A DNA stretch of 64,000 bases, from assembly GCF_041261265.1 (NCBI RefSeq), contig NZ_JBGCCA010000031.1:1-64000 (forward strand), read 5' to 3'. The first letter of the stretch is position 1; each line of letters starts with the position of its first letter. Below are positions 1-18,261 of this stretch, piece after piece. The notes below the pieces were generated by a model. That model saw only the letters and a program-made list of their open reading frames with translations. It ran no database searches and was not told where the DNA came from. The stretch comes from Streptacidiphilus sp. MAP12-33. GTDB taxonomy: Bacteria > Actinomycetota > Actinomycetes > Streptomycetales > Streptomycetaceae. Position numbers and translations under genes: made by a program.

Positions 1-91
1 TTCAGGCCGTTCAGGCCGTTCAGGCCGTTCAGGCCGTTCAGGCCGTTCAGGCCGTTCAGGCCGTTCAGGCCGTTCAGGCCGTTCAGGCCGT
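1..91. repeat. Perfect tandem repeat (ttcaggccg)x10, truncated by the window edge
   Basis: Direct reading: a 9-bp unit repeated 10 times with no mismatches. It lies immediately 3' of the stop codon (92-94 on minus) of the large AAA+ gene. Confidence 0.9.
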
Positions 92-3000
92 TCAGCCGGC
101 GTAGCCCGCGCAGAGGGTCCGCCAGCGGGCGGACTCCTGGGCGGTGGCGCGGCCGCGCAACTGGGCCAGTTTGAGCAGGTTGGCCTCGGCGGCGCTGCCG
201 AGCGTGCGGGCCTCGGCCAGGTAGTGGTCGTCCAGCAGCGCCTCGACCTCGGCGTCGCTCTGGACCGGGTCGATCCTGGCCGCCAGCTGCGCCATGGTCC
301 GGTAGGAACCCTGGAGCAGGAATGGTGGCTCGGTACGGGTCCGCTCCTCCTGTGCGGCCGAGGCGATGTAGGCGGTGTTGACCGTGAGCACGGTGCGCTG
401 GACCGCACGCAGCCGGGTGAGCGTGGCGACGGCGCGGTCCAGGTCCGGCACCGGCCGGGAGAGCTGGTCGGCCTGGGCGGCCGGGTCGCCGTCGGCGAGC
501 GCCACCAGCAACCGCAGGTCGGCCGGATCGCCACCCGCGAGCGGCGCGAGCACCGGGTTGGCGGCAAGGGCGTTCTCCAGGAAGGAGAGTGCGAACAGGC
601 CCTGGTGTCCGGTCAGCACCTCGCCGAGGTTCCACACGTCCGCGCGGTTCGCCAGCATGTCGGGGATCTCGAAACGCTGCCCGTTGGCGGTGTAGGGGTT
701 GCCCGCCAGGCAGACGGCGAAGCGGCGCCCGCGCAGGTCGAAGCTGCGCGCCACACCGTCACTGACCGCCTCGACGCGGCGCTGGGTGTCGCACAGCGGG
801 ATGAACTTCTGCAACAGCTCGGCGGAGACGTGCTGGATGTCGTCCACGTGCAGCAGCACGTTGCTACCCGCCTCCAGAGCGAACACGATCTTCTCGACCT
901 CGCGGCGGGCGGCGGCGTCGGGCGCGCGGTCCGGGTCGAGGGAGACCGTGCCGTGGCCGAGCGCCGGTCCGTCGACCCGGACCATGAGCAGGCCGAGCCG
1001 GTCGGCGACGTACTCCAGCAGCGTGGTCTTGCCGTATCCGGGCGGCGAGAGGAGCAGCAGCAGCCCGCTGCGGTCGGTGGTGGCCGTCGCGTCGAGCGTG
1101 CCGAGCTGCTTGGCCAGGTTGTCGCCGACCAGCGGCAGGTACACCTGGTCGATGAGCTGGTTGCGCACGAAGCCGGCGAGCGGCTGCGGCCGGTAGTCGT
1201 CCAACCGCAGCCGCGCCCGCTCGGCCCCCAGCACCTCCGCGCGCTGCCGCTGGAAGGCACGGAAGGCGGGCGCCCGCTCCTCCCGGAACGTCCGGGCGCG
1301 GTCGGGCAGTTCGTCGATCCGCACGGTCAGCCGCCCGTCCTTGATCCGGGGGTGCGCTCCGAGCAGACCGGTCACGGTCTCCTCGACGGCGGCGGTGACG
1401 TCGTAACGCGGCAGTCCCGGCGCGACGAGCTGCGCGACGGCCTCGTCGAGGCCGTCGAGACGCGGGGCGCCGGCGCCGGCGCCGGCCGCGCCGGGTGCGC
1501 CGGAGGCGCCGGAGGCGCCGGGTGCGCCGAGGGCACCACCTGCCGAACCACGGGCGTCGCCCCTGTCGCCCCCGTCGACCGTGCCGGAAGCCGCCGGGTC
1601 GCCGGGCACGGAGCCGTAGGCTCCCGCCGCGCCGGTGGCGCTGCTCGCGGCCTGGGCGCCACCCGCACCCCACGCGTCTCCCGCAAGCTCCGCGCGGGAG
1701 GCCGCGTAGGCGGTGAGCCAGGCGGCGGCGAGTTGGTGGCGGGCCGGGATGTCGGTGCCGAGAGCGCGGAGGTCCGCGGTGAGGGCCGAGGCGGCGTCGG
1801 TGTGGTGGAAGCCGTCGAGCAGGGCGCGGGCGGCCAGGCCGGTGGCGAAGCCCTCGCGGGGGCCGGCGAGCTCGGCGAGCAGGTAGTCGCCCGAGCGGGC
1901 CACCGCGCCCGGAAGGCCGAGCTCGTCGGCGAACCCCGCGACCGCGTCGCCGAGTTCCGCCGCCAGCTCGGCGCGTGCCGAGGCCGTCCCGGCCACCCCG
2001 AAGTGGGCACCGGCCAGGGCGAGCGAGCGCGCCCGCCGCTGCCACGCGGACCGCTGCGTGTCCGTCGCGCCGTGTGCCCAGAACAGCTGCGCCGCGGCAC
2101 GGGACTGCGCCGGGAACGCCAGCAGCCCCGCCCCGGCGGACAACCGCAGCAGCGCGTCGAGGATGAGCGCGGCATCGTGGTCGTGCACGCCGCGCTCGTA
2201 CCCCTCGTCGTACGCGCGCTCGGCGGCACTCCGGACCCGGTCGAGCAGCGGCACGGCGGTGACGTCGGGACCGATGTCTTGCGACGAGCCGACGGCCACC
2301 GCCAGGCCCGCGGCACCGCCCGACAGCAGCGCGGCACCCGTCGGCACCAGCGCCCCACCCGCCACCGGCAGCTCCCCCGCAGCGCCCACGACGTGGGGCG
2401 CGGAGCCGTTCAGCGCAGAGCCGTTCAGCGCGGCGGCGCCACCCGCCGTGAGCGACCCGCCCGTTCCCGGCGCGCTCGCGCCCGCGCCTGCCGCGGCCAC
2501 CTCGGCCAGCAGTGCCGCCGCCAGGTACTCCGAGCGGTAGAGCGCGGGCGACTCGCTGACCAGCGGCTGCGTCCAGAACTCCCGGCCGCCCAGCAGCTCG
2601 GGCACGTGCGCCGCGCGGCGGTAGCCGGTGCCGGTGACGAGGAAGGCGAGGCCGTCGCCGTCCGGCTGGAGGGTGAGTTCGACCGGCTCGCGCCGCACGG
2701 CGAAGCGGTGGCGGCCCAGGCGGACGCTCGCGCCGCCGTCCTCGGAGAGGTCGGCGCGGTCGCGCAGTTCGCGCAGGGCGGTGCGGACCGCGCCGGTGAG
2801 GCCGTCCTCCAACTCCTGGGCGCGGACCTGGTCGTCCAGCCCCCGCAGCTCCCCCGCCGCCGCGCGGACCCGCACCGCCATCGGATCGGCGGCCTCGGCG
2901 GCGTGGATGTCGGCGGCGGAGCCGAGGCCCGCGAGCCGACGCCGCAGGGCGTCGAGCGCGCGCCGCGCGGACGCGGCGACGCGGTCGGCGCGCGCGGCGG

Positions 3001-5383
3001 CCTCGTCCAGCAGTGTCTGCCGCCGCGCGGCGAAGGTCTGCTGGATCTCCTCGCGCCGCAGGGCGAGATCCGCGGCGAGGTCCTCGGCCTCGGCAAAGCG
3101 GGCTTCCAGCCCGTCCACGCGCAGCATCAGCCGTGCGAGTTGGTCATCGCAGGCGGCGGGGCTGTCGGCGGCGGCGAGTGCGGCTGTGGTCGCCTGTGCG
3201 AGCAGCGCGGACTCCGCGGCGTGCGCGGCGCGGTGCTCGGTGTCGAGCAGTGCGCGGCGGCGGTTGGCCAGCACCGCGCGGGCGCGGTTGACCGCCGCGA
3301 GCACCTCGCCGATGGCGAGCAGGACGGCCGTCCCGGCGGCCGGATCCGCGGCGACGGCGCCGGTGACCAGATCGGTGACCGTGGCCAGCGCGTCCGCCTG
3401 CTCGGTGAGCCGGTCGGCGAGATGGGCGGCCTCCGCCGCGCTCGCGACGGCCTCCGCCTCCTCGGCCGCGTGCCGGGCCGCCGCGAGCGGGGCCGCGAAG
3501 GCGTCCGGACCCGCGAAGAAGGCGAAGGCGCGCTCCGTCGCCGCCGTCAGCTCGGCGGCCAGCTCCTCCTCGACACGGCACAGCGCGGCCACGTCGAGCT
3601 GCGGCAGCTCGCGCAGCAGCCGGGTGCGGCCCTGGGCCTGGCGCAGCTCGGCGAGCAGCCGCGTCCAGGCGTCGGCGTCGGTGGGCGGCTCGCCGTGCGA
3701 GCGGCGGAAGAGGGAGGCGGCCTCCTCCCGTGCCTCCTCCAGCGCCCGCGCGGCTCGGGCCGCGAGCCCGCGGACGCGAGCCTGCTCGGCGACGACCTGC
3801 TCGGCGGACTCACGCAGCTCGGCGAGCGGCCGCAGCAGACCGAGGTCGGCGAGCCAGTAGTGGCGGCCCGCCGCCTTGGCACAGGCGTCGAGGATCAACT
3901 GCGGTGCCAGGGAGGCCGCCTGGTTGTCCTGGGCGGCGGCGTTGGCGGTGCGCACCACGTCGAGGCAGTCGGCGATGCCGCGCACCAGATCGGCGTTGCC
4001 GATGCGGGCCAGCGGGCCGTCGCCGACCGGCTGGGCGGCGGCGTGGTCGGCCGACTGGAACGGCGTCTCCCAGCGCTGGAGCTCGTGGGTGCGCACCGGC
4101 TCGCGGTCCGGCTTGACCAGCACCAGCGTGCCGTCGGGCAGCAGCGCGTACGCGGCGCCGTGCAGCGCCGCTCCGGCCTCGCGCCGGACGGTGTTCCACG
4201 GCAGCAGCAGCACCTGGGCGCGGCCGGGCCGGCGCAGGACGTAGAGCAGGTCCTCGCCGTTGGGCGCGGGCAGCACGGCGTCGAAGCGCAGCGCATCCCC
4301 TCCCGCCGCGTCCGCGCCCTCCCCGCCCTCCGTGCCCTCCGCGCCCTCGATGCGGAAGGCACGGTGGGTGCCGTCGGCCAGCTCGTAGCCGCCGGGGAAG
4401 ATCAGGCCCTGCTCGGCCGGCAGCAGCCGCGCGCCGAATCCGAGCGAGTCCTGCCTCCGCACCGAGCCGGTACGGGTGTTGACGACCAGGTAGCGGTCGG
4501 CGGGCTCGTTGTAGGGGCGGATGCGCAGGAGCAGCAGCGGGCCGGTCGCGGCGTAGGCGACGGTGGCGTCGGCGAGGCTCTGCAGCGGCTCGTCGACGGG
4601 CTCCTCGAAGAGCACGCGGTCGCCCGGGACGGCGTGGACGGTGAGGCTGCCGCCGGTGGTGGCGACGGAGACCGCGCGGCCTTCGCCGCCGTCGCTGCCG
4701 CCGGCCTCGATCCGGATCCGCCCGTGCTGGTGGTGCTCGCGCCCGACGACGGTCCACGGCAGCACGTAGACTGGCGACTGCGGCAGGTCGCGCTCCCCGT
4801 GGTTGCCGAGGTACTCGACCCGCCCGTCCGTCAGCTGCCAGCTCAGTACCCGCAGGTCACCGTCGTTCTCGCCGGTACGGAAGACCGCCAGCAGCTTGCC
4901 CGACGGCGTGCGGACCAGGTCGGCGAGGCGGGCGCCGCGGTAGTAGCGCAGCAGCTCCGCGAGTTCGCGGTGGAACCGCTCGTCGTCCAGCAGGCCCGGA
5001 ACGGCTGCCGGGTCGAGCGCCGAGCCGTCGAGCGCGTGCAGCGAGAGCAGGCCCGCGTCGAGGTCCGGCGCCGTCGTGCCCAGCAGCAGCACGTCCGGAC
5101 GGACGGCGACGACACCGCAGACGGTGCCCTCGCCGGCCGTGCGCGGCCGCGCCGAGGCCGCGAGCTCCAGCGCGCGGGAGCCGAACTCCTTCTGCCGCGC
5201 CTCGTTGACCTCCGCCGCCCGCCGCCCCAGCTCGACCGCGCGCTCTCCGAGCCGCGCCCGAAGGATCTGGTAGGTGCCGTCCTCGACGCCCATCGCTGCT
5301 TCCCGTGTCCCTTGCTTGTTCTGCTGCCTGTGCCTGTCCTGCGCTCTGACCGGTTTCTCGTCACTTACCGGCCGTGCCACCAC
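92..5383 (-). CDS. Large (1763 aa) conserved uncharacterised protein with a C-terminal AAA+ ATPase domain, last gene of the flotillin operon
   Basis: Six-frame ORF. It has a Walker A 'LLSPPGYGKTTLLEY' and a Walker-B-like 'VLLHVDDIQ' near the C-terminus, and long Ala/Arg/Glu coiled-coil-like central regions. Low-complexity Gly/Ala/Ser linkers are encoded by (GCGCCG)n-like DNA at about 1480-1700 and 2390-2450. It is co-directional and overlaps the flotillin gene by 23 bp. Confidence 0.8.
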   Translation of the reverse strand: MVARPVSDEKPVRAQDRHRQQNKQGTREAAMGVEDGTYQILRARLGERAVELGRRAAEVNEARQKEFGSRALELAASARPRTAGEGTVCGVVAVRPDVLLLGTTAPDLDAGLLSLHALDGSALDPAAVPGLLDDERFHRELAELLRYYRGARLADLVRTPSGKLLAVFRTGENDGDLRVLSWQLTDGRVEYLGNHGERDLPQSPVYVLPWTVVGREHHQHGRIRIEAGGSDGGEGRAVSVATTGGSLTVHAVPGDRVLFEEPVDEPLQSLADATVAYAATGPLLLLRIRPYNEPADRYLVVNTRTGSVRRQDSLGFGARLLPAEQGLIFPGGYELADGTHRAFRIEGAEGTEGGEGADAAGGDALRFDAVLPAPNGEDLLYVLRRPGRAQVLLLPWNTVRREAGAALHGAAYALLPDGTLVLVKPDREPVRTHELQRWETPFQSADHAAAQPVGDGPLARIGNADLVRGIADCLDVVRTANAAAQDNQAASLAPQLILDACAKAAGRHYWLADLGLLRPLAELRESAEQVVAEQARVRGLAARAARALEEAREEAASLFRRSHGEPPTDADAWTRLLAELRQAQGRTRLLRELPQLDVAALCRVEEELAAELTAATERAFAFFAGPDAFAAPLAAARHAAEEAEAVASAAEAAHLADRLTEQADALATVTDLVTGAVAADPAAGTAVLLAIGEVLAAVNRARAVLANRRRALLDTEHRAAHAAESALLAQATTAALAAADSPAACDDQLARLMLRVDGLEARFAEAEDLAADLALRREEIQQTFAARRQTLLDEAAARADRVAASARRALDALRRRLAGLGSAADIHAAEAADPMAVRVRAAAGELRGLDDQVRAQELEDGLTGAVRTALRELRDRADLSEDGGASVRLGRHRFAVRREPVELTLQPDGDGLAFLVTGTGYRRAAHVPELLGGREFWTQPLVSESPALYRSEYLAAALLAEVAAAGAGASAPGTGGSLTAGGAAALNGSALNGSAPHVVGAAGELPVAGGALVPTGAALLSGGAAGLAVAVGSSQDIGPDVTAVPLLDRVRSAAERAYDEGYERGVHDHDAALILDALLRLSAGAGLLAFPAQSRAAAQLFWAHGATDTQRSAWQRRARSLALAGAHFGVAGTASARAELAAELGDAVAGFADELGLPGAVARSGDYLLAELAGPREGFATGLAARALLDGFHHTDAASALTADLRALGTDIPARHQLAAAWLTAYAASRAELAGDAWGAGGAQAASSATGAAGAYGSVPGDPAASGTVDGGDRGDARGSAGGALGAPGASGASGAPGAAGAGAGAPRLDGLDEAVAQLVAPGLPRYDVTAAVEETVTGLLGAHPRIKDGRLTVRIDELPDRARTFREERAPAFRAFQRQRAEVLGAERARLRLDDYRPQPLAGFVRNQLIDQVYLPLVGDNLAKQLGTLDATATTDRSGLLLLLSPPGYGKTTLLEYVADRLGLLMVRVDGPALGHGTVSLDPDRAPDAAARREVEKIVFALEAGSNVLLHVDDIQHVSAELLQKFIPLCDTQRRVEAVSDGVARSFDLRGRRFAVCLAGNPYTANGQRFEIPDMLANRADVWNLGEVLTGHQGLFALSFLENALAANPVLAPLAGGDPADLRLLVALADGDPAAQADQLSRPVPDLDRAVATLTRLRAVQRTVLTVNTAYIASAAQEERTRTEPPFLLQGSYRTMAQLAARIDPVQSDAEVEALLDDHYLAEARTLGSAAEANLLKLAQLRGRATAQESARWRTLCAGYAG

Positions 5384-7517
5384 CGTTCAGCAACCGGGCC
5401 GGGTCCACCGGCAGGGATCCGTCGGCACCCGTGCCGTTCAGCAGCTTCATCAGCAGGGCCAGGTTCCAGGGCCCGCCGGCCGCGAGGGAGCGCAGCACCT
5501 CGGTGGCGTCGTCACCGAAGCTCCGGTCGCCGTTCAGCCACTCCGCGCCCAGCGCCTTGACGGTCTCCGAGCCCTGCACCGCGCCGTCGATGGACTTGCC
5601 GAAGGACACCGCGCCCACCAGCCGGTCCAGGAAGACGCTGTCGCCACCGACGATGTCGATGTCCGCGCTCTCCAGGCCGGCGGCCAGCACCGAGGCCTGC
5701 GCCTCGGCGACCTTGGCCTGGACCTCCAGCGCCGCGAGCCGCACGTCCTTGTCGGCGGCGAGCCGCAGGCGGAACTCCTCGTGCGCCCGGGAGACCTCGT
5801 CGAGGGCGGCCATCGCCGCGGCCTTCTTCTCCAGACCGGCCGCCTCGCCGAGCAGCTTCTCTCGGATCGCCGCGGCCTCGGCGTTGCCCTTGCTCTCCGC
5901 CACGGCGGCCTCGGCCAGGCCGACCTTCTCGATCGCGACGGCCTTCTCCTTCATACCGGCCGCCTCGGCCTCCAGCCGGGCGCGGACGGCGGCCGCCTCC
6001 GCGTTGGCCTTGCTCTCCGCCACGGCGGCCTCGGCCCGACCGACCTTCTCCATCGCGACGGCCTTCTCCATGAGACCGGCCGCCTCGCCCTCCAGCCGCG
6101 CCCGAACACCGGCCGCGTCGGCCAGCGCCTGGCGCTCCGCCACCTCGGCCTCGGCCAGACCGGCGGCACCGGCCAGCGCCCGCTCGCCCTCGGCGCGGCG
6201 CACGTTGGCAGCGGCCTCCAGCTCGGCGCTCTTCTGCGCGGCCTCGGCCAGCACCAGCCGCTCCTTGGCCCTCAGGTGCGCGGCCTGCTCCGCGGCCTCG
6301 GCCGCCTTGATGTCCTTGACCAGCTGCTCCTGGGCCTCCGCCTCGGCGGCGATGATGACGGACTGCCGGGTGCGCTCGGCCTCCTGGACGACGCGGACCC
6401 GCTTGATCTCCTCCTCCTGCTCCGCGACGGTCCGCTCCACCGCGATCCGCTCACGCAGCACCTCGGCCACGCCGCGGCGCTCGACCTCGACCTCCTTCTC
6501 CATCCCGGCCTTGGCCAGCTGCACCTCGCGGTCCCGGTTGACGACCTCCAGCAGCCGGTCCTTCTCGATCCGCTCGGACTCGACGGCCAGGACGCGCTCG
6601 CGGTTCTTCTCGGCGACGGCGATCTCGCGCTGCTGGTTCTCGCGCTGCACGCCGAGCAGCTCCTCGGTGCGCAGCAGCGCGCTGTGCGCCTTGAGCCGCT
6701 CCTCCTCCTGGACCTGCGCGGTGGCGGCCTCCTCCTGCGCCTTCAGCGTCTCGATGCCCTTGCGCTGCCGGATCTCCGCCTCGGCGCGGCGGCGCTCCAG
6801 CTCCAGCACGGCCTCGCGGGCGTCGACGTCCTGACGGGTGATCTCCATCTGCTCGTTGCGCTGGAAGTCGTTGGTGCGGATGTGCTCCAGTGCGGTCAGC
6901 TCGGTGATCTTCCGGATGCCCTGTGCGTCCAGGATGTTGGTCGGGTCGAGCTCGGCCATCGGGGTCTGCTCGAGGTGGTCGATCGCCGCGTCCTCGAGGT
7001 GGTAGCCGTTGAGGTCGGTGCCGATGGCGGCGATGATCCGGTCGCGGAACTCCTCGCGGTGGGTGTAGAGGTCCGCGAACTCCAGTTGCTTGCCGACGGT
7101 GCGCAGCGCCTCGGCGAACTTGGCGCTGAACAGGTTCTGCATGGTCTCCTGGTGGCTCGCCCGCTCGGTGCCGATGGCCTGGGCGACCTTGATGACGTCC
7201 TCTTCGGTCTTGTTGACGCGGACGAAGAAGGTGATCTGGATGTCGGCCCGGATGTTGTCCTTGCAGATCATCCCCTCGCGGCCCTTGCGGGTGATCTCGA
7301 TGGTCTTCACCGAGATGTCCATGACCTCGGCGCGGTGCAGCATCGGCAGCACCAGGGCGCCGGTGAAGCTCACGTCGACGCTCTTGGGACGGGAGACGAT
7401 CAGGGCCTCACCCTGGACGACCTTGCGGAACAGCCGTCCGAAGAGCAGCAGCGTGCCCAGACCGATGAGCAGCAGGACGGCGACGAGTACGCCGATACCG
7501 ATGGTGACGACAGACAT
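5361..7517 (-). CDS. Flotillin / SPFH (band-7) family protein, YqiK/FloT-like
   Basis: It has an N-terminal TM segment and an SPFH domain ('EALIVSRPKSVDVSFTGALVLPMLHRAEVMDISVKTIEI'), followed by a long Glu/Ala/Arg-rich coiled-coil tail, which is typical of bacterial flotillins. Confidence 0.85.
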   Translation of the reverse strand: MSVVTIGIGVLVAVLLLIGLGTLLLFGRLFRKVVQGEALIVSRPKSVDVSFTGALVLPMLHRAEVMDISVKTIEITRKGREGMICKDNIRADIQITFFVRVNKTEEDVIKVAQAIGTERASHQETMQNLFSAKFAEALRTVGKQLEFADLYTHREEFRDRIIAAIGTDLNGYHLEDAAIDHLEQTPMAELDPTNILDAQGIRKITELTALEHIRTNDFQRNEQMEITRQDVDAREAVLELERRRAEAEIRQRKGIETLKAQEEAATAQVQEEERLKAHSALLRTEELLGVQRENQQREIAVAEKNRERVLAVESERIEKDRLLEVVNRDREVQLAKAGMEKEVEVERRGVAEVLRERIAVERTVAEQEEEIKRVRVVQEAERTRQSVIIAAEAEAQEQLVKDIKAAEAAEQAAHLRAKERLVLAEAAQKSAELEAAANVRRAEGERALAGAAGLAEAEVAERQALADAAGVRARLEGEAAGLMEKAVAMEKVGRAEAAVAESKANAEAAAVRARLEAEAAGMKEKAVAIEKVGLAEAAVAESKGNAEAAAIREKLLGEAAGLEKKAAAMAALDEVSRAHEEFRLRLAADKDVRLAALEVQAKVAEAQASVLAAGLESADIDIVGGDSVFLDRLVGAVSFGKSIDGAVQGSETVKALGAEWLNGDRSFGDDATEVLRSLAAGGPWNLALLMKLLNGTGADGSLPVDPARLLNGGGTAGK
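5881..6120. repeat. Internal 120-bp tandem duplication within the flotillin gene (two near-identical copies; a partial third copy at 5821-5880)
   Basis: Sequence lines 5881-6000 and 6001-6120 align almost base for base. They encode the repeated peptide 'RARLE(G/A)EAAG(L/M)(M/K)EKAVA(M/I)EKVG(R/L)AEAAVAESK(A/G)NAEAAA'. Confidence 0.85.
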
Positions 7518-7601
7518 GGCTGTTCCCTTGGATGGACTTCACTGGTGCTGCGAATGAGATGGATGTGCGTTGTGCGTGCGCTGGACGTGCGCTGGCTGTG
7601 A

Positions 7602-8471
7602 CTAGGCGATCGGCGCCGGCATGACCCAGAAGAACTCGCCGTCGGCGTCGTAGTCGTAGATGAGTGCGGCGGCTCCGGCGCGGAGCGTTCCGCCCTCGCC
7701 CGCCGCGTCGTCGAGGCTCTGCCGGACCTGCACCACGGCGGATGAGCCGTCGGCGGAGCGGACCTCGGCCTGACCGAAGTCGGGCCCCACCCGACCGGTC
7801 CTGATCACGCAGCCGAGCCCCACGAAGTCCCGCCGCGAGGGCGGCGGAGAGGGCTCCGGCATCATCCGTGCCAGCGGCACGGCCAGCAGGCGGGCCCCCA
7901 CCCACCCACCGGCGAGCGCGAGCGGCAGCAGGAACCACCGGCCGCCGCCGAGCCATTCAGTGCAGGCGAGCGCGGTGAACCAGCCGAAGGCGACCACGAG
8001 CGAGACCGCCACCGTGACCGGTACCCCACCCAGCCCCGCCGCCCGCCGCGCGGCGGCGTGCCAGTGGTGGCCCCCGCCGCTCTGCCCGCCGCCACTGTGC
8101 CCGCCACCGTGGGCGGCCCCGGCCTGGCCGGGCGGGGCGTGGTGGCCGGCCTGGCCGGTGTGACCGGCCTGTCCCCCGTGGCCCCCACCATGCGCCCCGC
8201 CGTGTCCGCCATGCCCCCCGCCATGACCGGCCTGGCCGCCATGCCCCCAGGCATGGCCGCCGCCGTGTCCCCCGTGTCCCCCGTGACCGGCGGAGCCCGC
8301 ATGCCCACCCCGGGCTCCGTGCAGGTGCGCTCCCCCGACGAGCACCAGCACCCAGTACGCCACCACCACGACCAGCGCGAAGGTGAACACCACGGTCGGA
8401 TAGGCCGTGACCGCCCCCAAAAAGCCCCGCACCGTGCTCGCCTGCCTCTGAACGTCCCCCGAAGCGGCCAC
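7602..8471 (-). CDS. NfeD-like membrane protein (YqiJ/NfeD family, C-terminal OB-fold) with a His/Gly-rich low-complexity insert
   Basis: It has TM helices, a C-terminal 'GLGCVIRTGRVGPDFGQAEVRSADGSSAVVQVRQ' OB-fold-like segment, and a position immediately upstream of flotillin, the classic NfeD-flotillin pairing. The (GHGG)n tract is encoded at about 8080-8340. Confidence 0.7.
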   Translation of the reverse strand: MAASGDVQRQASTVRGFLGAVTAYPTVVFTFALVVVVAYWVLVLVGGAHLHGARGGHAGSAGHGGHGGHGGGHAWGHGGQAGHGGGHGGHGGAHGGGHGGQAGHTGQAGHHAPPGQAGAAHGGGHSGGGQSGGGHHWHAAARRAAGLGGVPVTVAVSLVVAFGWFTALACTEWLGGGRWFLLPLALAGGWVGARLLAVPLARMMPEPSPPPSRRDFVGLGCVIRTGRVGPDFGQAEVRSADGSSAVVQVRQSLDDAAGEGGTLRAGAAALIYDYDADGEFFWVMPAPIA

Positions 8472-8698
8472 CCGTCGCGGACCCGCACGCGTCAGGGTGG
8501 CAGCGCGAACGGCACCACCGCAGTGCGTGATCCCGGCAGTCTTAGCGCCCTCTTAGCATCCGGGTTCAGCTCACAGCAGCGGTGCCGTCCACGGGACCAC
8601 GGCCGGATGGCTAACCTTGCGCGATGCCCACCCGACCGCGCCCCTCCGCTTCACGAGCGCACCCACCCTCCGCGTTCGTCTGGCTCGTCCCGATCGGC

Positions 8699-9205
8699 AT
8701 GCTGGCGGGTGCCGTCGCGGTGTTCCTCGGCGTAGGCCCGAACCTCGCCGGCTCACTCCGGCTGACCGGCGCCCCGGGCACCCTCGCCGTGCACTCCTGT
8801 TCCACGGTGGGATCCGGCAAACAGGCGCACACCCGCTGCACGGGCACCTTCACCTCCGACGACGGAACCGTCCAGGACCCCTCCGCCACCATCGACGTGC
8901 CCCTCGCCACCGGCGGCACCGTCCCGGTCCAGCGCGCCGCAGACGGCTCCCTCGTCCAGGTCGGCGTCGTTCCGGCGGCCGGCTGGATCGCCGTCCTCTT
9001 CCTCGGGCTCGCGACCGCGGCCCTGGGCTGCCTCTGCGCGGTCCTCCTGATCCGCCGCCCGGCCTCGCTCGACCACCTCGGCGTCCTCCGCCCCGACGCC
9101 CCGGAGCGCCGCCTGGCCAAGTACGCCGGCCTCCTCTGCTGCGCGTCCGTCGCGGCCGCCCTGCTGAGCGGCCTGATCTCGGTCGCGGGCCGCCTGGTCC
9201 AGTAG
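8699..9205 (+). CDS. Hypothetical membrane protein (two TM segments). An alternative upstream start lies at 8624
   Basis: Six-frame ORF with hydrophobic segments 'MLAGAVAVFLGVG' and 'WIAVLFLGLATAALGCLCAVLLI' and high GC3. Confidence 0.45.
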   Translation: MLAGAVAVFLGVGPNLAGSLRLTGAPGTLAVHSCSTVGSGKQAHTRCTGTFTSDDGTVQDPSATIDVPLATGGTVPVQRAADGSLVQVGVVPAAGWIAVLFLGLATAALGCLCAVLLIRRPASLDHLGVLRPDAPERRLAKYAGLLCCASVAAALLSGLISVAGRLVQ

Positions 9206-9342
9206 CGACACCCTCGCATCCCAAGCCCTGCCAGGCCACCGACCGGCCCCTGACGAACAGTTGCCGTCACCTACAACCGCAAGAGGCCCCGGACCTACGA
9301 CGGTCCGGGGCCTTTGCGTTGCGTTCCGGCTGGTGAGCCGCA

Positions 9343-9386
9343 GAGCCCCCTGTCGGGTTCGAACCGACGACCCCCGCTTTACAAGA
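9343..9386. repeat. attL of AICE-1, a 44-bp partial tRNA-Thr copy (T-arm to anticodon loop)
   Basis: 'gagccccctgtcgggttcgaaccgacgacccccgctttacaaga' is identical to 23142-23185. Confidence 0.85.
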
Positions 9387-9523
9387 CTGCGAGTGAGACT
9401 CACGCCCTGAGCAGCGGATACGTGGACCTGATGGCGTGGCCGCTCAACTCCCCGTCAGTCACCGCTCGAACCCATCGGACACCGCTCGTTCTGGCACGGT
9501 AGTGGCACGCCCGGGAGAACAAG

Positions 9524-9814
9524 CTACGAGTGGTCCAGCACCTGGGGACAGGTGAGGTCAATCCAGATCCATGGTTCGTGGTGCCACGTCCGTATCTCGC
9601 CGACGATCACTGAAATGACGCTCCCCACCGGCGGGAGTTCTTGCGCGAGTCGGCGCACCTCAGGCTCGCTGCCACGTCGGATGACGTCCATGGATGCGCC
9701 CACGGGCTCGAACCCGTGGATCTTCGCGGTGACACCCCAAGGCCAGTGGCCTGTGATCGTTGCTTCGACTTGAGCACCCTGCGCGAGCTCGCTCAGTGGG
9801 CGTTCGTCAGACAC
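9524..9814 (-). CDS. Hypothetical protein (96 aa), AICE-1 cargo
   Basis: Six-frame ORF with no recognisable motif. Confidence 0.35.
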   Translation of the reverse strand: MSDERPLSELAQGAQVEATITGHWPWGVTAKIHGFEPVGASMDVIRRGSEPEVRRLAQELPPVGSVISVIVGEIRTWHHEPWIWIDLTCPQVLDHS

Positions 9815-10058
9815 GACACCTCCTCTTGGCGCTCACTATAGGGAGCGGCTTTACAGACCGCTCCGCGATCCGGCGGGTCATCCACCCTGACCTGCGAGGA
9901 GTCGTCTTGCGCCCTACGTATCGGGGCTTCTGGTCCGTGACTGGTCCGGATCTTGAACGCCGGCGGCACTGGGTCCTGCATCACGCTCGACGAGGGAGCT
10001 GATCTCCGATCGTTGAAGTTAGTAGGCTCGCGTGCCAGTTGAGATCTAGGGGTGGGCC

Positions 10059-11249
10059 ATGAGGATCAGAGACCTGACGAGTGCCACTGCGGTGGAAAGG
10101 GCACTCGCTGAGTACAACGACTTGGGTGGGCAGCGTTTCCGCGACAAGCACAAGTTCGGCCCCTCGACGCAGTACTACCTCAGTCACGCTGACCTGCTGT
10201 ACGACGCCAAGGCGATCGCCGGCGTCGCTTACGGCTACCAGCATCGGACCAGCGGTCCGTTGTCAAACGACCAGTTCGATGGTGGCGAGGCGGCCACAAA
10301 CCCCGTACTGCGCGCCATGGGGTTCACGGTCCTCAACAGCCACACGGAGACCGTAGACGCAGAGCGGGAGTGGCGCCTGGCTGTGTGGCGGAATCTGCTC
10401 GGACGGCGGGACAGCTCCGGGCTGGTCACCGCGGACGCCATTCGCTCAGTAGGTGCATACGGCAACTACCGTGGCATCTGGACAGACAAAGCCCGTACCC
10501 AGAAGATCCATCCCGACGGCGTGACGATCGGACTCAAGCACACCGGCCAACACTACCCCGACGACCTGAACGAGAACGGAGCGCTGTACCACTACCCGGT
10601 CACACGGCAGCCAGGCCGTGACCTCGGTGAAGTCAACGCCACGAAGGCGGCCGCCACGCTGCGGCTTCCCCTGTTTGTGATCACCGAGCATGGCGACCTC
10701 CGAGGCGTACACCTTGCATGGGTAGAGGGCTGGGAGGACGAGAGCAGCCTGTTCCTGGTCAACTTCGGCGAGACCCCGCCCGTACAAGTCCTGGACCACG
10801 ACCGCTCAGAGGAGCAGCCGTTCCAGCTCGAAGGCAACAGACGCCGCCGACGGAACGGGACTGTGGTCACACGACCGGACCAGGCCCGATTCAAGCTCGA
10901 AGTGTTCCAGCGGTACGGTCCACACTGCCCCCTCTCGGGGATCGCGATTCCCCAGATGATCGAGGCAGCCCACCTCCGAGGCGACGCTGACGGCGGTACC
11001 TCCGACGCCCGCAACGGCCTGCCAATGAACGCGGCACTTCACAGGGCCTTTGACGCCCACCTCTTCGCCATCAACCCTGACACCCTGACCGCAGAGGCGC
11101 GCCCTGGAGGACCAAGCCTGGGAGCCATGGGCATCGTGCACCCAAAGCTTGCCCTGGACCGCCAGCCGCACCCAGAGGCCCTTCGGTGGCGCTACAACGA
11201 GTGGCTGCGCTGCACCGGCCGAGAAGCGGAAGTACCAGCCGACGAGTAG
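10059..11249 (+). CDS. HNH-family nuclease with N-terminal putative modified-DNA reader domain(s). Candidate type IV (modification-dependent) restriction enzyme
   Basis: The C-terminus 'CPLSGIAIPQMIEAAHLRGDADGGTSDARNGLPMNAALHRAFDAHLFAINPD' matches the HNH_2 / McrA-like nuclease motif (C..C, AAH, NGL, HxxFD). The upstream domains have no catalytic motif. The region has lower GC than the flanks. Confidence 0.7.
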   Translation: MRIRDLTSATAVERALAEYNDLGGQRFRDKHKFGPSTQYYLSHADLLYDAKAIAGVAYGYQHRTSGPLSNDQFDGGEAATNPVLRAMGFTVLNSHTETVDAEREWRLAVWRNLLGRRDSSGLVTADAIRSVGAYGNYRGIWTDKARTQKIHPDGVTIGLKHTGQHYPDDLNENGALYHYPVTRQPGRDLGEVNATKAAATLRLPLFVITEHGDLRGVHLAWVEGWEDESSLFLVNFGETPPVQVLDHDRSEEQPFQLEGNRRRRRNGTVVTRPDQARFKLEVFQRYGPHCPLSGIAIPQMIEAAHLRGDADGGTSDARNGLPMNAALHRAFDAHLFAINPDTLTAEARPGGPSLGAMGIVHPKLALDRQPHPEALRWRYNEWLRCTGREAEVPADE

Positions 11250-11667
11250 GCAGACTGGTTACGCCAGAAGCCCCGCTCCATTCGGCGCGGGGCTTCTGCG
11301 TTGGTTCGCTCGGCAAGGTTCAAACTGCAACCTTTGATCCGCAGCTCTTGCCGGACGAGTCATTCGTGGACAACCGCGCCTGTGGGGCGGCAGACTCCCC
11401 AGGCCATGCAGCAGCAACGTGAGTTGCTGTCCCTCACTGCTGTACGCGACGACTGCCGTCATACAGCGCAGTCCGTGATCTGAAGTCACTCACGTGCTTC
11501 AGCGAGCGACTCCGATGGCAGCAATCGAGACTCATCCTCTACAGCCGCGATGTAGTCGCCCAGGGTCAAGTCCCCGGCCGCAAGCGAGTAAGCCAGCAAG
11601 CTGACTGGCTGCTCAGCCATGCCATTCCCCATCCTTCGGCGTACTCGTCGAGCAAACGCAACGCACG

Positions 11668-12054
11668 CTAGTGGCTGCTGTAGTTGATCGTCAGAATCGC
11701 CACTACCCGGTGTGCGTCCCCGTCGGCCTCAACGCGGTACTCATCATTGAACTGGTAATCGATGCGGGCCGCACCACTTACCTCGTAGTGAGTTGTCCGC
11801 GACCACCCCGGCCCCTGCGGCTTGCCGGCCTTTCCTCGCAGGATGCAGGTCGATGCAACAGGTGCCGGATTGCCAGGATCGTGGGACACGTGATCCCAGA
11901 ACTGTTGAGCCTGCTGCAACCCAACCCGATCCGCCAACTGCTCATACAAGCGCTTGAACCGCCTGTGAACCAAGACGCGATATTTAGGCTGCTCGTCTGG
12001 CTTTCCACCAGGACGCCTGGCCGGCTCATGCGGGTCGTAGGCGCTGCTACTCAT
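11668..12054 (-). CDS. YoeB/Txe-like (RelE/ParE superfamily) toxin
   Basis: 'RGKAGKPQGPGWSRTTHYEVSGAARIDYQF...HRVVAILTINYSSH' resembles the YoeB 'GKGKPEPLKHNLSGFWSRRI...' core. It overlaps the upstream antitoxin ORF by 8 bp. Confidence 0.55.
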   Translation of the reverse strand: MSSSAYDPHEPARRPGGKPDEQPKYRVLVHRRFKRLYEQLADRVGLQQAQQFWDHVSHDPGNPAPVASTCILRGKAGKPQGPGWSRTTHYEVSGAARIDYQFNDEYRVEADGDAHRVVAILTINYSSH

Positions 12055-12511
12055 CTTCGGGCCGAGGCGCGGTCACGAAGTCTGCGGGGTCGTGTTGGCC
12101 GAGCAGGATACTGCGCCGCAGAGGGTCTTCCAGCTGTCGGGCGGTGGTCCGCCAAGCCTGCAGACAGTCCTCTAGGACGCTGACGTGACCGTCTGCATGA
12201 GCTGCCGTGAGGGCCGCCTGGAGCTCCGCAAGGAACTCCCGAAGATCCTCATCGTCGAAGACTCGAAGCCATGCCAGGTCACCGAGAGCACTGACATCTC
12301 TGCCTGCTCCGCGGCTGATGATTGCCTCCAGGCGCACGGCTGCTTGCGACCAATCCGCCAGGGTCTCTAGCAGGTGCAGGCGACTCTCAGGCAACATGAC
12401 CAGGCTAGTGCCATCCTTGTCGCGGACCCTCGCGAGGCCGCTACGCGCCGCTGTCAGGAGCTCAACTCGCTTGGTAGCTAGATCGCTGGCTTGAAAGATG
12501 GTGTCAGTCAT
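12047..12511 (-). CDS. Phd/YefM-family antitoxin (N-terminal domain) with an extended C-terminus
   Basis: The N-terminus 'MTDTIFQASDLATKRVELLTAARSGLARVRDKDGTSLVMLPESR' is a typical YefM/Phd fold signature. It sits immediately upstream of, and overlaps, the toxin gene. Confidence 0.6.
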   Translation of the reverse strand: MTDTIFQASDLATKRVELLTAARSGLARVRDKDGTSLVMLPESRLHLLETLADWSQAAVRLEAIISRGAGRDVSALGDLAWLRVFDDEDLREFLAELQAALTAAHADGHVSVLEDCLQAWRTTARQLEDPLRRSILLGQHDPADFVTAPRPEDE

Positions 12512-12550
12512 AGCTCCTCCTGTTTGCTAGGATCCTACGTACGATCGTGA

Positions 12551-13876
12551 TTGTCAACGTGGCATCCGGGTGACCCGGCCAAGGTCAGGAGGTGGCGCAA
12601 CTTGAGCGGGCCAAGGCCGTTTGACGCGCGCGAGGCACTGATGTGCGAGACCGACAAGAACCCCGGCACCTCATGGCGCACAGTAAGCCTCGTCACTAGC
12701 CTCAGACACCTCCTCGCCCGCAACCAAGAGGCAGACAACACCTCCCAGGAATCTCGGGCAGATGCCCTCCGCGCGATAGCCAGCGAGCTGACACGCCGCG
12801 GCATCGATGCCGACTCCCTGATTCGCTACGGGCTCTGCATTGAGGTTTTCTCCCCACTTCTCGGTGCCGCGATCCTGAAGAACATAATCCCCAAAAAAGA
12901 CCTGGGGAGGATCCTCGGACTTAGCCCCGAAGACCTGGAAGCTTGGCGCGATGTTCTCGACATTCAAGCGTCGGTCGCGCCAGCGCCAGGTGATGATGAC
13001 TTCGCAGGGTTCGTCCAAGTCACCATCGAGTCGTTTGGGCCGCGAGTGATTACATGGATCCTCTACGCCCCCGTAGATGACTTGATCACCTTGCGCCCGC
13101 CGCAGCCGGCAGAGCTAGAAGAGGCTCTGAATTTTGCCGACCCGTCCGCAGAGCTCATAAAAGAGTATCGCTGGGTTGTCGATCGCTTCTCAGAGACATT
13201 CGTGCGGGATTGGTCGGAGCATTCCCTTCGACAGGAGTACCTGTGGATCCAAGGGCGCGCCCTGCCCCCCTGCCCTCCCGCGCTGATGGGGGATCGGCTG
13301 GTCACTCGCAGCGAACTGGAAGCTGAGATAGCGCGCCGCGCCGTCCTGCCGCCCACCGAGCCGTCGCCGTTGGAGTCAGTCGACTCCGGGGGGAGGCTCG
13401 TCATCGAAATGGAGAACCACGCGCGCCTGCTGCTCTCCGAGGGCCGTTATCGCGAGGCAGCTGCCCTCTTTGAGTTTGCCGAGAAACGGCGCCCCGAGGA
13501 CCCTTCGATTCACAACGACATGGGGTTCTGTCTCATTCCAGTAAACTCTCGCGAGGCCCTCAAGCATCTCAATTCTGCCGCAGCACTCGGATACCATCCC
13601 GCAGCAATCAATACATACAACATCATGTGCTGCCAGTTCGACGGGCGGGACTTTCACTCCCTCGTTGGCACGGCCGGAAAATATTGGGATACCCAGCTGG
13701 AGAACCGGGCCACCCCCGGAACTTTGTGGCGCTGGAGCAGCAGGGACTCATGGCAACTGGTGAATACAAAGGACGCCAGAAAGGCGATCGCCACGCTGGC
13801 TCACCAGGTTTGCACCACCGAAGGCTGGAAGGAGCTCGAACAGCTTTGGTTTGATCGGCTTGAAGAATTGGCGTGA
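12551..13876 (+). CDS. Hypothetical protein with a C-terminal TPR-like repeat, lower-GC cargo of unknown function. The start is uncertain (possible TTG at 12602 with an AGGAGG RBS at 12587-12592, or ATG at 12641)
   Basis: Six-frame ORF of 441 aa containing 'EGRYREAAALFEFAEKRRPEDPSIHNDMGFCLI' (TPR-like). GC is about 55-58% against a backbone above 70%. It is divergent from the TA pair. Confidence 0.55.
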   Translation: MSTWHPGDPAKVRRWRNLSGPRPFDAREALMCETDKNPGTSWRTVSLVTSLRHLLARNQEADNTSQESRADALRAIASELTRRGIDADSLIRYGLCIEVFSPLLGAAILKNIIPKKDLGRILGLSPEDLEAWRDVLDIQASVAPAPGDDDFAGFVQVTIESFGPRVITWILYAPVDDLITLRPPQPAELEEALNFADPSAELIKEYRWVVDRFSETFVRDWSEHSLRQEYLWIQGRALPPCPPALMGDRLVTRSELEAEIARRAVLPPTEPSPLESVDSGGRLVIEMENHARLLLSEGRYREAAALFEFAEKRRPEDPSIHNDMGFCLIPVNSREALKHLNSAAALGYHPAAINTYNIMCCQFDGRDFHSLVGTAGKYWDTQLENRATPGTLWRWSSRDSWQLVNTKDARKAIATLAHQVCTTEGWKELEQLWFDRLEELA

Positions 13877-14406
13877 TTGCTCTACCGGGCCGACCAGTCC
13901 CGGAGCCGTGTTTCTGCGCGTCGGTGCATTCCCACCACTCCCCCCCTGACATCCCGTCCGCCGTCGACCCACACGCACGTGGAGCGGGCTTGCCCCCTGG
14001 GGTCCAGATGGAGCGCGCCACTGTACGAACGATCTGGACCCCAGGGGGCAAGTCTGCTCGGCTCTGCCTGGGTCGATGGCGGTCGGGATGGCAGTCCCCT
14101 CCCCAGCCCCTACGGCCTGCACCCTCGGCACGGCCCGGTCATCCCGGTGCCGGCTGATCCCCTGTCGTCCAGACAGTCAGTCCGACTCTTGCCCCTGCCT
14201 CCGCTTGCGGTCCGCCCCGCCGGGCGGCGCGGGGCGAAGACAGGAGCGCGCCCGAGCGGGGGCGGGCCGCGCCGCGCAAGCGGCGTGGTCCCTTGATTCA
14301 GTAGAGAAAGTCATCACCACTCCCCTCTCCACCTCATCTCACCTCGAACGATTCACGTCAACCACGCTGCCGCGCTTGGCGCGCTCGCCCCGTACTGCTC
14401 TTCTCG

Positions 14407-15196: not shown

Positions 15197-15197
15197 G

Positions 15198-15211
15198 TAC
15201 AGGAGACTAGG
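15198..15211. promoter_or_regulatory. Putative KorSA operator 'ctcaTGTACAggag' in the nudix/kor divergent promoter region
   Basis: A near-palindrome centred on TGTACA. Its exact reverse complement occurs at 16097-16110. Confidence 0.5.
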
Positions 15212-15225
15212 GGACGGTAAGGACT

Positions 15226-16008: not shown

Positions 16009-16062
16009 CGGAGCCTCAACCTCCGTATCCCGTCCCGAGATTCTTTCCGGGGCGGGTTTACT

Positions 16063-16110: not shown

Positions 16111-16144
16111 GCAGGAGAAAGCCTCATCTAGAGGAGTCGGCTCA

Positions 16145-16489: not shown

Positions 16490-16494
16490 TCGCG

Positions 16495-18259: not shown

Positions 18260-18261
18260 CT

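What the first reader, a model, noticed from the sequence alone, without database searches (positions are those of the whole stretch)
92..8471. NfeD-like / flotillin / 1763-aa AAA+ protein operon
A minus-strand operon couples an NfeD-like OB-fold membrane protein and a flotillin with a giant protein. The giant protein's only recognisable catalytic element is a C-terminal AAA+ module (GYGKTT ... VLLHVDDIQ). The rest is long coiled-coil-like and low-complexity sequence. The flotillin overlaps the giant gene by 23 bp, which suggests co-translation. The function of such giant flotillin-associated ATPases is not established to my knowledge.
Basis: partly seen in the sequence, partly recalled or inferred. 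Interest (0 to 1): 0.55.

Follow-up and report, generated by a model that had tools for sequence, protein, structure and literature searches.

The report
Flotillin operon with giant AAA+ ATPase
This is a real three-gene operon (small YqiJ-like membrane protein, flotillin, 1733-residue AAA+ ATPase) whose gene arrangement is already described and which matches part of the Pseudomonas aeruginosa bac/PspA operon. It is a new member of a known but functionally unsolved membrane-stress module.

Summary
The three minus-strand genes exist and are coding. The window matches Streptacidiphilus sp. MAP12-33.

Two details of the finding fail:
- The giant gene starts at ATG 5293 (1733 aa), not GTG 5383. The 23-bp overlap is therefore a longest-ORF artefact, and a 67-nt spacer separates the genes.
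- The part before the AAA+ module is not mainly coiled coil and low complexity. It holds a seven-bladed beta-propeller (Pfam DUF3686, E 8e-102), a spectrin/talin-like helical rod (with DUF7902) and a conserved helical domain. The two low-complexity stretches are lineage-specific inserts.

A flotillin gene lies directly upstream of the giant gene in all 81 related loci with upstream DNA, across six phyla. A YqiJ-like gene precedes it in at least 70 of 78. Beta- and gammaproteobacterial loci add DUF2170 and PspA.

Ravi et al. 2024 described this neighbourhood, including the PspA-less short form. The P. aeruginosa homologue is BacE (PA3728) of the co-transcribed bacABCDEF operon.

Most likely it is a membrane-stress module in which the ATPase remodels flotillin or PspA-type assemblies. 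That mechanism is inferred, not shown.

The parts
7602..8471 (-). YqiJ/BacC-like small membrane protein: three hydrophobic segments and a beta-rich C-terminal domain. It is 289 aa from GTG 8471. Homologues suggest the real start may be GTG 8432.
   Evidence: GC3 is 0.88. It aligns with the gene upstream of flotillin in 21 other loci, sharing the motifs FPTVVFT..YW, GLGGVP, PLRRLF and FGQAEV. hhalign against E. coli YqiJ gives probability 88.7%, E 2.5e-6. The Pseudoalteromonas BacC homologue hits it at E 4e-11. No Pfam NfeD or YqiJ match.
8037..8330 (-). Gly/His-rich low-complexity insert (GHGGHGG...) in the loop after the first membrane segment of the YqiJ-like protein
   Evidence: Present only in the window and its closest relatives L003 and L004. 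Other homologues have a short acidic linker here.
5361..7517 (-). Flotillin (YqiK/BacD/PaFlo3 type), 718 aa: N-terminal membrane segment, SPFH domain at residues 33-176, long Glu/Ala-rich coiled coil, C-terminal tail
   Evidence: Pfam Band_7 E 6.1e-11, 43.1 bits against a cut-off of 23.6. 29% identical to E. coli YqiK, E 1e-38. 37-94% identical copies lie directly upstream of the giant gene in 81 loci. GC3 is 0.96.
92..5293 (-). Giant BacE-like AAA+ ATPase, 1733 aa (PGAP name 'DNA repair ATPase')
   Evidence: 100% match to P0001 of Streptacidiphilus sp. MAP12-33. Pfam DUF3686 7.8e-102 and DUF7902 2.5e-16. Start codon fixed. GC3 is 0.93.
4064..5167 (-). Seven-bladed beta-propeller (residues 43-410, the core of DUF3686), preceded by an N-terminal helix (residues 3-37)
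   Evidence: AlphaFold2 model with mean pLDDT 84 shows 28 strands in seven groups of four. Foldseek matches WD40-type propellers such as DCAF1, YncE and Ski8, at E about 2e-6 and probability 1.0.
2741..4015 (-). Helical rod (residues 427-851) made of long antiparallel helices. It includes DUF7902 (residues 597-680, nt 3254-3505).
2264..2491 (-). Lineage-specific low-complexity insert 1 (about residues 935-1010)
   Evidence: 92% gaps among 28 homologues for residues 951-1000. The part inside the model (residues 909-930) has pLDDT below 50.
1666..2263 (-). Conserved helical middle domain (about residues 1011-1209) with the invariant motif G-V-H-D-x-D (G1035, H1037, D1040)
   Evidence: pLDDT mostly above 90. 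Invariant columns Y1032, G1035, H1037, D1040 and R1065. The same motif was picked as the most conserved pattern.
1454..1681 (-). Lineage-specific low-complexity insert 2 (about residues 1205-1280)
   Evidence: 88% gaps among homologues for residues 1201-1250. pLDDT about 30 for residues 1209-1274.
554..1066 (-). AAA+ ATPase core (about residues 1410-1580): Walker A SPPGYGKTT (nt 1022-1039), Walker B LLHVDD (D1484/D1485, nt 839-844), sensor-1 N1532, conserved R1550
95..553 (-). C-terminal helical lid and tail (residues 1581-1733) with the conserved motif EPPF.LQGSYR
   Evidence: Helices with pLDDT 80-96. Invariant R1653, P1656 and R1665.
5294..5360 (-). 67-nt spacer between the flotillin stop and the giant-gene start, with a ribosome-binding-like GGGAAG
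   Evidence: No stable hairpin (z -0.6).
7518..7601 (-). 84-nt spacer between the YqiJ-like gene and the flotillin gene
   Evidence: No stable hairpin (z -0.5). No terminator match on this strand.
8472..8623 (.). Divergent intergenic region that should hold the operon promoter
   Evidence: The neighbour 8624-9205 is a plus-strand gene for a small membrane protein. No sigma-70 consensus match, which says little for an actinomycete.

Best explanation
The locus is the short, PspA-less form of a conserved membrane-stress module. Its three genes correspond to BacC (YqiJ-like three-segment membrane protein with a beta-rich C-terminal domain), BacD (YqiK-type flotillin) and BacE (giant AAA+ ATPase) of the Pseudomonas aeruginosa bacABCDEF operon.

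Shown here:
- The three genes are real and contiguous, with no terminator-like structure between them.
- They are inherited together across six phyla.
- The giant protein is built of a seven-bladed beta-propeller, a spectrin/talin-like helical rod, a conserved helical domain and one MoxR/CbbQ-like AAA+ module whose ATPase motifs are conserved.

Inferred:
- The flotillin forms an oligomeric scaffold on the cytoplasmic face of the membrane, together with the YqiJ-like partner, as other SPFH-NfeD pairs do.
- The giant protein oligomerises through its AAA+ module, as AAA+ proteins normally do.
- It reaches the flotillin through its rod and propeller.
- It spends ATP to assemble, remodel or take apart the flotillin scaffold, PspA-type polymers encoded elsewhere, or their clients, during envelope stress.
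For: Identity:
- Pfam DUF3686 plus DUF7902 plus AAA.
- At least 1999 homologues, and 447 clusters at 50% identity, keep the full-length architecture down to about 24% identity.

Linkage:
- Flotillin lies directly upstream in 81 of 81 loci with upstream DNA. The YqiJ-like gene is found in at least 70 of 78. No other gene is universally conserved.
- DUF2170 and PspA sit immediately upstream in 11 beta- and gammaproteobacterial loci.
- In P. aeruginosa the order is DUF2170, PspA, 213 aa, 688 aa, the 1746-aa DUF3686 protein, then PLD, next to recJ and lasB. This makes the giant homologue PA3728/BacE.

Literature:
- Ravi et al. 2024 describe this operon and its abbreviated form, and propose sub-membrane assembly and remodelling (PMC11237479).
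- RT-PCR shows bacA to bacF are one transcript. A sigma-54 site is proposed. BacB to BacF rise 6- to 13-fold in a bacA mutant (PMC10948618).
- PA3731 accumulates on osmotic shock (PMC2587700).
- PA3728-PA3732 are induced by phage infection (PMC12041424).

Structure:
-.
- Walker A, Walker B, sensor-1 and R1550 are conserved, so ATPase activity is under selection.
Against: - No experiment addresses the giant ATPase itself in any organism.
- No physical contact between it and the flotillin was tested or modelled here.
- Deleting paFlo3 (bacD) in P. aeruginosa PA14 gave only about 20% less biofilm and no stress phenotype (PMC13086221).
- The window holds no PspA, DUF2170 or PLD gene, so any link to PspA in this organism is indirect.
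- The Walker B motif is DD rather than DE, and no aromatic pore loop is evident between the Walker motifs (my reading of the sequence). A threading mechanism is therefore not implied.
- The closest structural relatives, MoxR-type ATPases, normally work with a VWA-domain partner. None of the neighbouring genes scanned against Pfam matched one, and none is universally conserved next to the module.
Confidence: 0.6

Rival explanations
1. Client-directed quality control. The flotillin cage corrals damaged or unfolded membrane proteins. The giant AAA+ protein extracts or unfolds those clients rather than remodelling the scaffold. This would parallel FtsH inside the HflK/C cage, but without a protease domain.
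Against: There is no protease domain or partner protease in any locus. No aromatic pore-loop motif is evident (my reading of the sequence). The best structural matches are MoxR-type remodellers, not unfoldases.
Confidence: 0.2
2. Anti-phage defence or abortive-infection module. The membrane-associated complex senses phage-induced envelope damage, and the ATPase triggers a response. In some Pseudomonas loci that response would involve the adjacent PLD-family protein and helicase-nuclease.
For: PA3728-PA3732 are induced by two virulent phages (PMC12041424). The family is patchily distributed, in at least 581 of 185,579 species genomes, and horizontal transfer has been inferred for paFlo3. PLD follows the giant gene in 5 loci, and an SF1 helicase with a REase-like domain follows in 2. 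The window operon lies about 900 bp from an integrated element.
Against: PADLOC gives no match beyond a P-loop-only hit to IetA at E 0.005. No homologue was found in 2.9 million viral contigs. Only 13 of 72,556 plasmid records carry one, mostly megaplasmids or chromids. In P. aeruginosa the gene sits between recJ/lasB and thrC, and its 90%-identity cluster holds 3222 sequences, which suggests a core gene. PLD and the helicase are not conserved parts of the module.
Confidence: 0.1
3. MoxR-type maturation chaperone. Like CbbQ-CbbO or NorQ-NorD, the ATPase would remodel a specific enzyme or insert a cofactor. The flotillin would serve only as an anchor.
Against: None of the neighbouring genes scanned against Pfam matched a VWA/MIDAS partner or a candidate target enzyme, and no such gene is conserved next to the module. 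The only invariant partners are the flotillin and the YqiJ-like protein. About 1400 residues of propeller and rod have no counterpart in MoxR proteins.
Confidence: 0.05
4. A DNA-repair ATPase, as the Pfam description of DUF3686 and the PGAP product name say.
For: Only the names. Weak P-loop-limited similarity to RuvB, E 0.004-0.04.
Against: No DNA-binding, nuclease or helicase domain was found by Pfam, NCBIfam or fold search. The RuvB similarity covers about 35 residues around Walker A. The invariant neighbours are membrane proteins. No paper in the library holds the terms DUF3686 or PF12458, or the name together with flotillin.
Confidence: 0.03

Closest known systems
Pseudomonas aeruginosa bacABCDEF operon (PA3732-PA3727), specifically BacC-BacD-BacE
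   Same: Same three proteins in the same order: a YqiJ-like membrane protein of about 213 aa, a flotillin of about 688 aa and a DUF3686/DUF7902/AAA+ giant of 1746 aa. The related Pseudomonas giant in L011 is 36% identical to the window protein over its full length. Co-transcription is shown there by RT-PCR (PMC10948618).
   Different: The window operon lacks bacA (DUF2170, CesT-like), bacB (PspA) and bacF (PLD). No sigma-54 context is expected in an actinomycete (my own knowledge). The window proteins carry lineage-specific Gly/His-rich and Ala/Gly-rich inserts.
[quoted passage not shown] 2024, mSystems, PMC11237479)
   Same: Exactly this composition and domain description. That paper reports the short form as more widely distributed than the PspA-linked form and suggests it may work with PspA encoded elsewhere.
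   Different: Nothing substantive. This report adds structure-based detail: seven blades, a spectrin/talin-like rod and a MoxR/CbbQ-like AAA+ fold. It also adds adjacency counts.
E. coli yqiJ-yqiK and B. subtilis yuaF-floT (short NfeD-type protein plus flotillin)
   Same: The first two genes are of this type. The flotillin matches YqiK at E 1e-38 and the family profile matches YqiJ at probability 88.7%.
   Different: E. coli has no giant ATPase downstream of yqiK. sibD/ibsD and hldE follow instead.
HflK/C-FtsH and Vps4-ESCRT-III (an AAA+ machine paired with a membrane scaffold)
   Same: The working logic is similar: a membrane-bound SPFH or ESCRT-III/PspA-type polymer coupled to an AAA+ ATPase. 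This is an analogy used for the mechanism.
   Different: There is no protease domain, no MIT domain, and the AAA+ fold is closest to MoxR/CbbQ rather than the classical clade. No homology was found beyond the AAA+ core.
MoxR-family AAA+ ATPases (CbbQ, NorQ, RavA)
   Different: No VWA partner was found among the neighbouring genes scanned. There are about 1400 extra N-terminal residues. The Pfam AAA_5 model does not reach significance on the window protein.

Membership tests
BacE-like giant ATPase family (Pfam DUF3686 + DUF7902 + C-terminal AAA+) | N-terminal DUF3686 (PF12458) match above the curated cut-off | tested here: met
   E 7.8e-102, 341.5 bits against a cut-off of 25, covering profile positions 1-431 of 448
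BacE-like giant ATPase family (Pfam DUF3686 + DUF7902 + C-terminal AAA+) | DUF7902 (PF25472) in the helical middle region | tested here: met
   E 2.5e-16, 60.1 bits against a cut-off of 26
BacE-like giant ATPase family (Pfam DUF3686 + DUF7902 + C-terminal AAA+) | A single C-terminal AAA+ module with conserved Walker A, Walker B and sensor-1 | tested here: met
BacE-like giant ATPase family (Pfam DUF3686 + DUF7902 + C-terminal AAA+) | Gene lies directly downstream of a YqiK-type flotillin gene | tested here: met
   True in the window and in 81 of 81 related loci with upstream DNA
SPFH / flotillin | Band_7/SPFH domain above the Pfam gathering score, after an N-terminal membrane segment | tested here: met
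   43.1 bits against 23.6, residues 33-176. A hydrophobic N-terminus at residues 4-27 is visible.
SPFH / flotillin | Homology to a named bacterial flotillin | tested here: met
   E. coli YqiK: 29% identity over 481 residues, E 1e-38
NfeD (Pfam PF01957) / YqiJ (DUF1449) | Match to the Pfam NfeD or YqiJ models | tested here: not met
   No family matched the window protein. Among 22 homologues only one matched YqiJ_N, at E 0.42. No NfeD chain appeared in the profile search of solved structures.
NfeD (Pfam PF01957) / YqiJ (DUF1449) | Profile-level homology to E. coli YqiJ, with the same layout of membrane segments plus a C-terminal beta domain, encoded directly upstream of the flotillin | tested here: met
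   hhalign probability 88.7%, E 2.5e-6, 129 columns covering the second and third membrane segments and the C-terminal domain. Position upstream of the flotillin.
NfeD (Pfam PF01957) / YqiJ (DUF1449) | OB fold of the C-terminal domain | not tested
Only the sequence pattern is available.
Psp (PspA-linked) envelope-stress operon | pspA (with or without the DUF2170/CesT-like gene) in the same operon | tested here: not met
   Nothing below E 0.3 in tblastn of the 64-kb window. Present only in 11 beta- and gammaproteobacterial loci.
MoxR-type AAA+ (AAA_5) | ATPase fold closest to MoxR-family members | tested here: met
MoxR-type AAA+ (AAA_5) | Significant match to the Pfam AAA_5 model | tested here: not met
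   AAA_5 is not among the hits for the window protein at E up to 0.1. It is only 'faint' in homologues.
MoxR-type AAA+ (AAA_5) | VWA/MIDAS-domain partner gene nearby | tested here: not met
   None of the neighbouring genes scanned against Pfam matched a VWA family. No further conserved neighbour exists.
Known anti-phage defence systems (PADLOC-DB 2.0) | Match of any of the three proteins to a defence-system model | tested here: not met
   Only a P-loop-limited IetA hit at E 0.005 for the giant protein, and none for the other two
DNA-repair ATPases | A DNA-binding, nuclease or helicase domain, or linkage to repair genes | tested here: not met

The most novel reading that the evidence does not exclude
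The giant protein is a new kind of bacterial membrane-remodelling motor. A ring of MoxR-like AAA+ modules would carry long spectrin-like arms tipped with beta-propellers that grip a flotillin cage or PspA/ESCRT-III-type polymers. ATP would drive their assembly or disassembly. Functionally this would be a bacterial counterpart of Vps4 for SPFH or PspA scaffolds, evolved from a different AAA+ clade.
Probability: 0.3. Interest if true: 0.65.

Novelty: new member of a known kind. Interest (0 to 1): 0.3.

Why it matters
How bacterial flotillins and PspA-type polymers are assembled and recycled is unsettled. Ravi et al. point out that it is unknown how PspA homologues without an associated AAA ATPase regulate their assembly.

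This family is a conserved ATPase that is always encoded next to a flotillin, from actinomycetes to Pseudomonas. That makes it a direct experimental handle on the question.

The present locus adds no new principle. It does show that the three-gene core stands alone in Actinomycetota. The report also gives a domain map (propeller, rod, MoxR-like motor) that can guide experiments. It further shows that the database name 'DNA repair ATPase' has no support.

Tried and rejected
- **Plus-strand ORFs.** The long ORFs 224-5560 and 5274-7601 were rejected as antisense shadows by codon-position GC. ORF 8611-9270 (minus) was rejected in favour of 8624-9205 (plus) for the same reason and because its translation is implausible.
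- **GTG 5383 start and 23-bp overlap.** Rejected.
- **Family libraries.** NCBIfam gave nothing useful for any of the three proteins. PADLOC gave nothing beyond a P-loop hit.
- **Solved structures by sequence.** Single-sequence and profile searches found only Walker-A-limited hits for the giant protein, none for the flotillin and none meaningful for the YqiJ-like protein.
- **Pfam NfeD and YqiJ models.** No hit on 22 family members.
- **Literature.** Searches for DUF3686, PF12458 and 'DNA repair ATPase' with flotillin returned nothing.
- **Encoding contigs.** The look-up of the window protein itself was not on record.
- **Viral contigs.** No relatives.
- **Further conserved operon members.** An all-against-all ORF clustering found none beyond the three genes. 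Most extra clusters were frame shadows of the high-GC genes.
- **Eight Streptomyces loci.** No YqiJ-like gene was detected at the thresholds used. They were not examined further.


Full report
**1. What is in the sequence**

The region has about 75% G+C. The three minus-strand ORFs named in the finding are present. Their codon-position GC is typical of real genes in a high-GC actinomycete: third positions are 0.88-0.96 and second positions are lowest. The equally long plus-strand ORFs are antisense shadows.

The giant protein is identical to a deposited protein of Streptacidiphilus sp. MAP12-33 that has 1733 residues. That protein starts at ATG 5293, not at the GTG 5383 given by the longest-ORF rule. 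Four observations support the ATG:
- In an alignment with the four closest relatives, conservation starts abruptly at the ATG, and the 67 nt before it diverge with indels.
- The 90-nt extension has GC3 of only 0.70.
- GGGAAG lies 5 nt upstream of the ATG.
- The N-termini of distant homologues align with this start.

The reported 23-bp overlap with the flotillin gene is therefore an artefact. The genes are separated by 67 nt, and the first two by 84 nt. Neither spacer folds better than shuffled sequence, and no terminator-like site lies on this strand. The gene upstream of the operon (8624-9205) is on the other strand. The unit therefore has exactly three genes.

**2. The three proteins**

*Flotillin.* The middle protein has an SPFH/Band_7 domain above Pfam's cut-off. 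It is 29% identical to E. coli flotillin YqiK (E 1e-38).

*Small membrane protein.* It matches no Pfam model, neither NfeD nor YqiJ. It does align along its length with the gene that precedes the flotillin in other loci. A profile of that alignment matches E. coli YqiJ with 88.7% probability (E 2.5e-6). 'NfeD-like' is thus acceptable only in the loose sense of the YqiJ/YuaF-type partner of flotillins. In this lineage the protein carries a Gly/His-rich insert of about 100 residues.

*Giant protein.* It is not mostly coiled coil and low complexity.
- Pfam finds DUF3686 (E 7.8e-102) and DUF7902 (E 2.5e-16).
- Two AlphaFold2 models (mean pLDDT 84 and 83.5) were built on 46-sequence alignments.
- They show an N-terminal helix and 28 strands in seven groups of four, which is a seven-bladed propeller.
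- A run of long antiparallel helices (residues 427-851) and a small beta domain follow.
- Next come a well-ordered helical domain with an invariant G-V-H-D-x-D motif, the AAA+ core, and a helical C-terminus.
- Foldseek matches the propeller to WD40-type propellers.
- The two low-complexity stretches are lineage-specific inserts, absent from about 90% of the aligned homologues, and are predicted disordered.
- Walker A, Walker B (DD rather than DE), sensor-1 and a conserved arginine are invariant or nearly so across the family.

**3. Conservation and context**

The family is moderate in size:
- 447 clusters at 50% identity match the N-terminal 720 residues at E up to 0.001.
- Full-length proteins of 1550-2036 residues occur down to about 24% identity.
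- At least 581 of 185,579 species genomes carry a relative. They span Actinomycetota, Pseudomonadota, Bacteroidota, Myxococcota, Planctomycetota and Bacillota.

In the 83 loci fetched, the pattern is uniform:
- A flotillin gene (37-94% identical to the window's) lies directly upstream of the giant gene in all 81 loci that have upstream DNA.
- A YqiJ-like gene lies directly upstream of that in at least 70 of the 78 loci where the DNA is available.
- Clustering of all flanking ORFs found no other universally conserved gene.
- In 11 beta- and gammaproteobacterial loci a DUF2170 gene and a PspA gene precede the trio. A PLD-family gene follows in 5 loci.
- None of these extra genes occurs in the window.

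The family is absent from 2.9 million viral contigs. It is rare on plasmids: 13 of 72,556 records, mostly megaplasmids or chromids.

**4. What is already known**

Ravi et al. 2024 (PMC11237479) describe an operon that joins CesT/Tir-PspA with three further genes:
[quoted passage not shown] - a three-segment membrane protein typified by YqiJ/YuaF.

A PLD hydrolase is sometimes present as well. They state that abbreviated operons with only the flotillin, the YqiJ/YuaF protein and in some cases this ATPase are more widely distributed, and may work with PspA encoded elsewhere. The window is such an abbreviated operon.

In P. aeruginosa the homologous genes are bacC, bacD (PaFlo3) and bacE. I confirmed that the P. 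aeruginosa DUF3686 protein (1746 aa) lies in the order DUF2170, PspA, 213 aa, 688 aa, giant, PLD, next to recJ and lasB. That makes it PA3728/PA14_16190. Published data for that operon are:
- RT-PCR shows one transcript from bacA to bacF, a sigma-54 site is proposed, and BacB to BacF rise 6- to 13-fold in a bacA mutant (PMC10948618).
- PA3731 accumulates on osmotic shock (PMC2587700).
- PA3728-PA3732 are induced on phage infection (PMC12041424).
- Deleting paFlo3 has only a marginal biofilm effect (PMC13086221).

None of the papers found addresses the activity of the giant ATPase. None supports the database name 'DNA repair ATPase'.

**5. How it most likely works**

Shown: gene identity, operon structure, strict co-inheritance with a flotillin, domain architecture, and conservation of the ATPase motifs.

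Inferred from established knowledge of SPFH-NfeD cages, HflK/C-FtsH and Vps4-ESCRT-III:
- The flotillin and its YqiJ-like partner form a membrane-bound scaffold.
- The giant protein oligomerises through its AAA+ module and docks through its propeller and rod.
- It uses ATP to remodel the scaffold, PspA-type polymers or their clients during envelope stress.

I put about 0.9 on the identity and operon statements and about 0.4 on the remodelling mechanism.

Rivals, with my confidence in each:
- A client-unfolding role: 0.2.
- An anti-phage role: 0.1. Induction by phage and the patchy distribution speak for it. The lack of any PADLOC match, the absence from viral contigs, the rarity on plasmids and the apparently core position in P. 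aeruginosa speak against it.
- A MoxR-type maturation chaperone: 0.05. No VWA partner was found among the neighbours scanned.
- DNA repair: 0.03. This rests on the name only.

**6. Verdict**

The arrangement is already in the literature, so this is a new member of a known kind. The unresolved function of a conserved flotillin-linked ATPase keeps it moderately interesting (0.3).

Noticed in passing
window 9343-23185: An integrated element of about 13.8 kb is bounded by a perfect 44-bp direct repeat (9343-9386 and 23142-23185). The right copy lies inside tRNA-Thr(TGT) at 23140-23216. G+C is lower than in the flank (0.61-0.73 against 0.75). It carries HNH, TPR, GntR/UTRA and FtsK/SpoIIIE genes, so it looks like an actinomycete integrative conjugative element.
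   Followed up: partly
window 1-91: A 9-bp tandem repeat ACGGCCTGA occurs about 10 times. It starts at the stop codon of the giant gene and runs off the window edge. Each unit carries an in-frame TGA. It folds much better than shuffles (z -3.5), but only because of self-complementary repeats.
   Followed up: no
window 8037-8330 (minus strand): The YqiJ-like protein carries a Gly/His-rich insert of about 100 residues (GHGGHGG...). It is shared only with the closest relatives L003 and L004. Such a composition could bind metal, but this is unexplained.
   Followed up: no
window 2174-2191 (minus strand; residues 1035-1040 of the giant protein): An invariant G-V-H-D-x-D motif, with Y1032 and R1065 also invariant, sits in a well-ordered all-helical domain between the rod and the AAA+ module. 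It is conserved across all phyla sampled and its role is unknown.
   Followed up: no
window 8624-9205 (plus strand): A divergently transcribed gene encodes a small protein with two hydrophobic segments. The overlapping minus-strand ORF 8611-9270 is a frame shadow.
   Followed up: partly
L011 13196-17169 (Pseudomonas sp.); also L015, L043: In some Pseudomonas loci the giant gene is followed by a rhomboid protease gene, the PLD gene and an SF1 helicase fused to a REase_MTES_1575-like domain. This is not seen in P. aeruginosa (L083), where PLD follows directly.
   Followed up: partly
P0083 and P0084 (Nonomuraea sp. NBC_00507): Two distinct full-length family members of 1604 and 1607 aa are reported on the same 12.69-Mb contig. 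Some actinomycetes therefore carry two copies of the giant ATPase.
   Followed up: no
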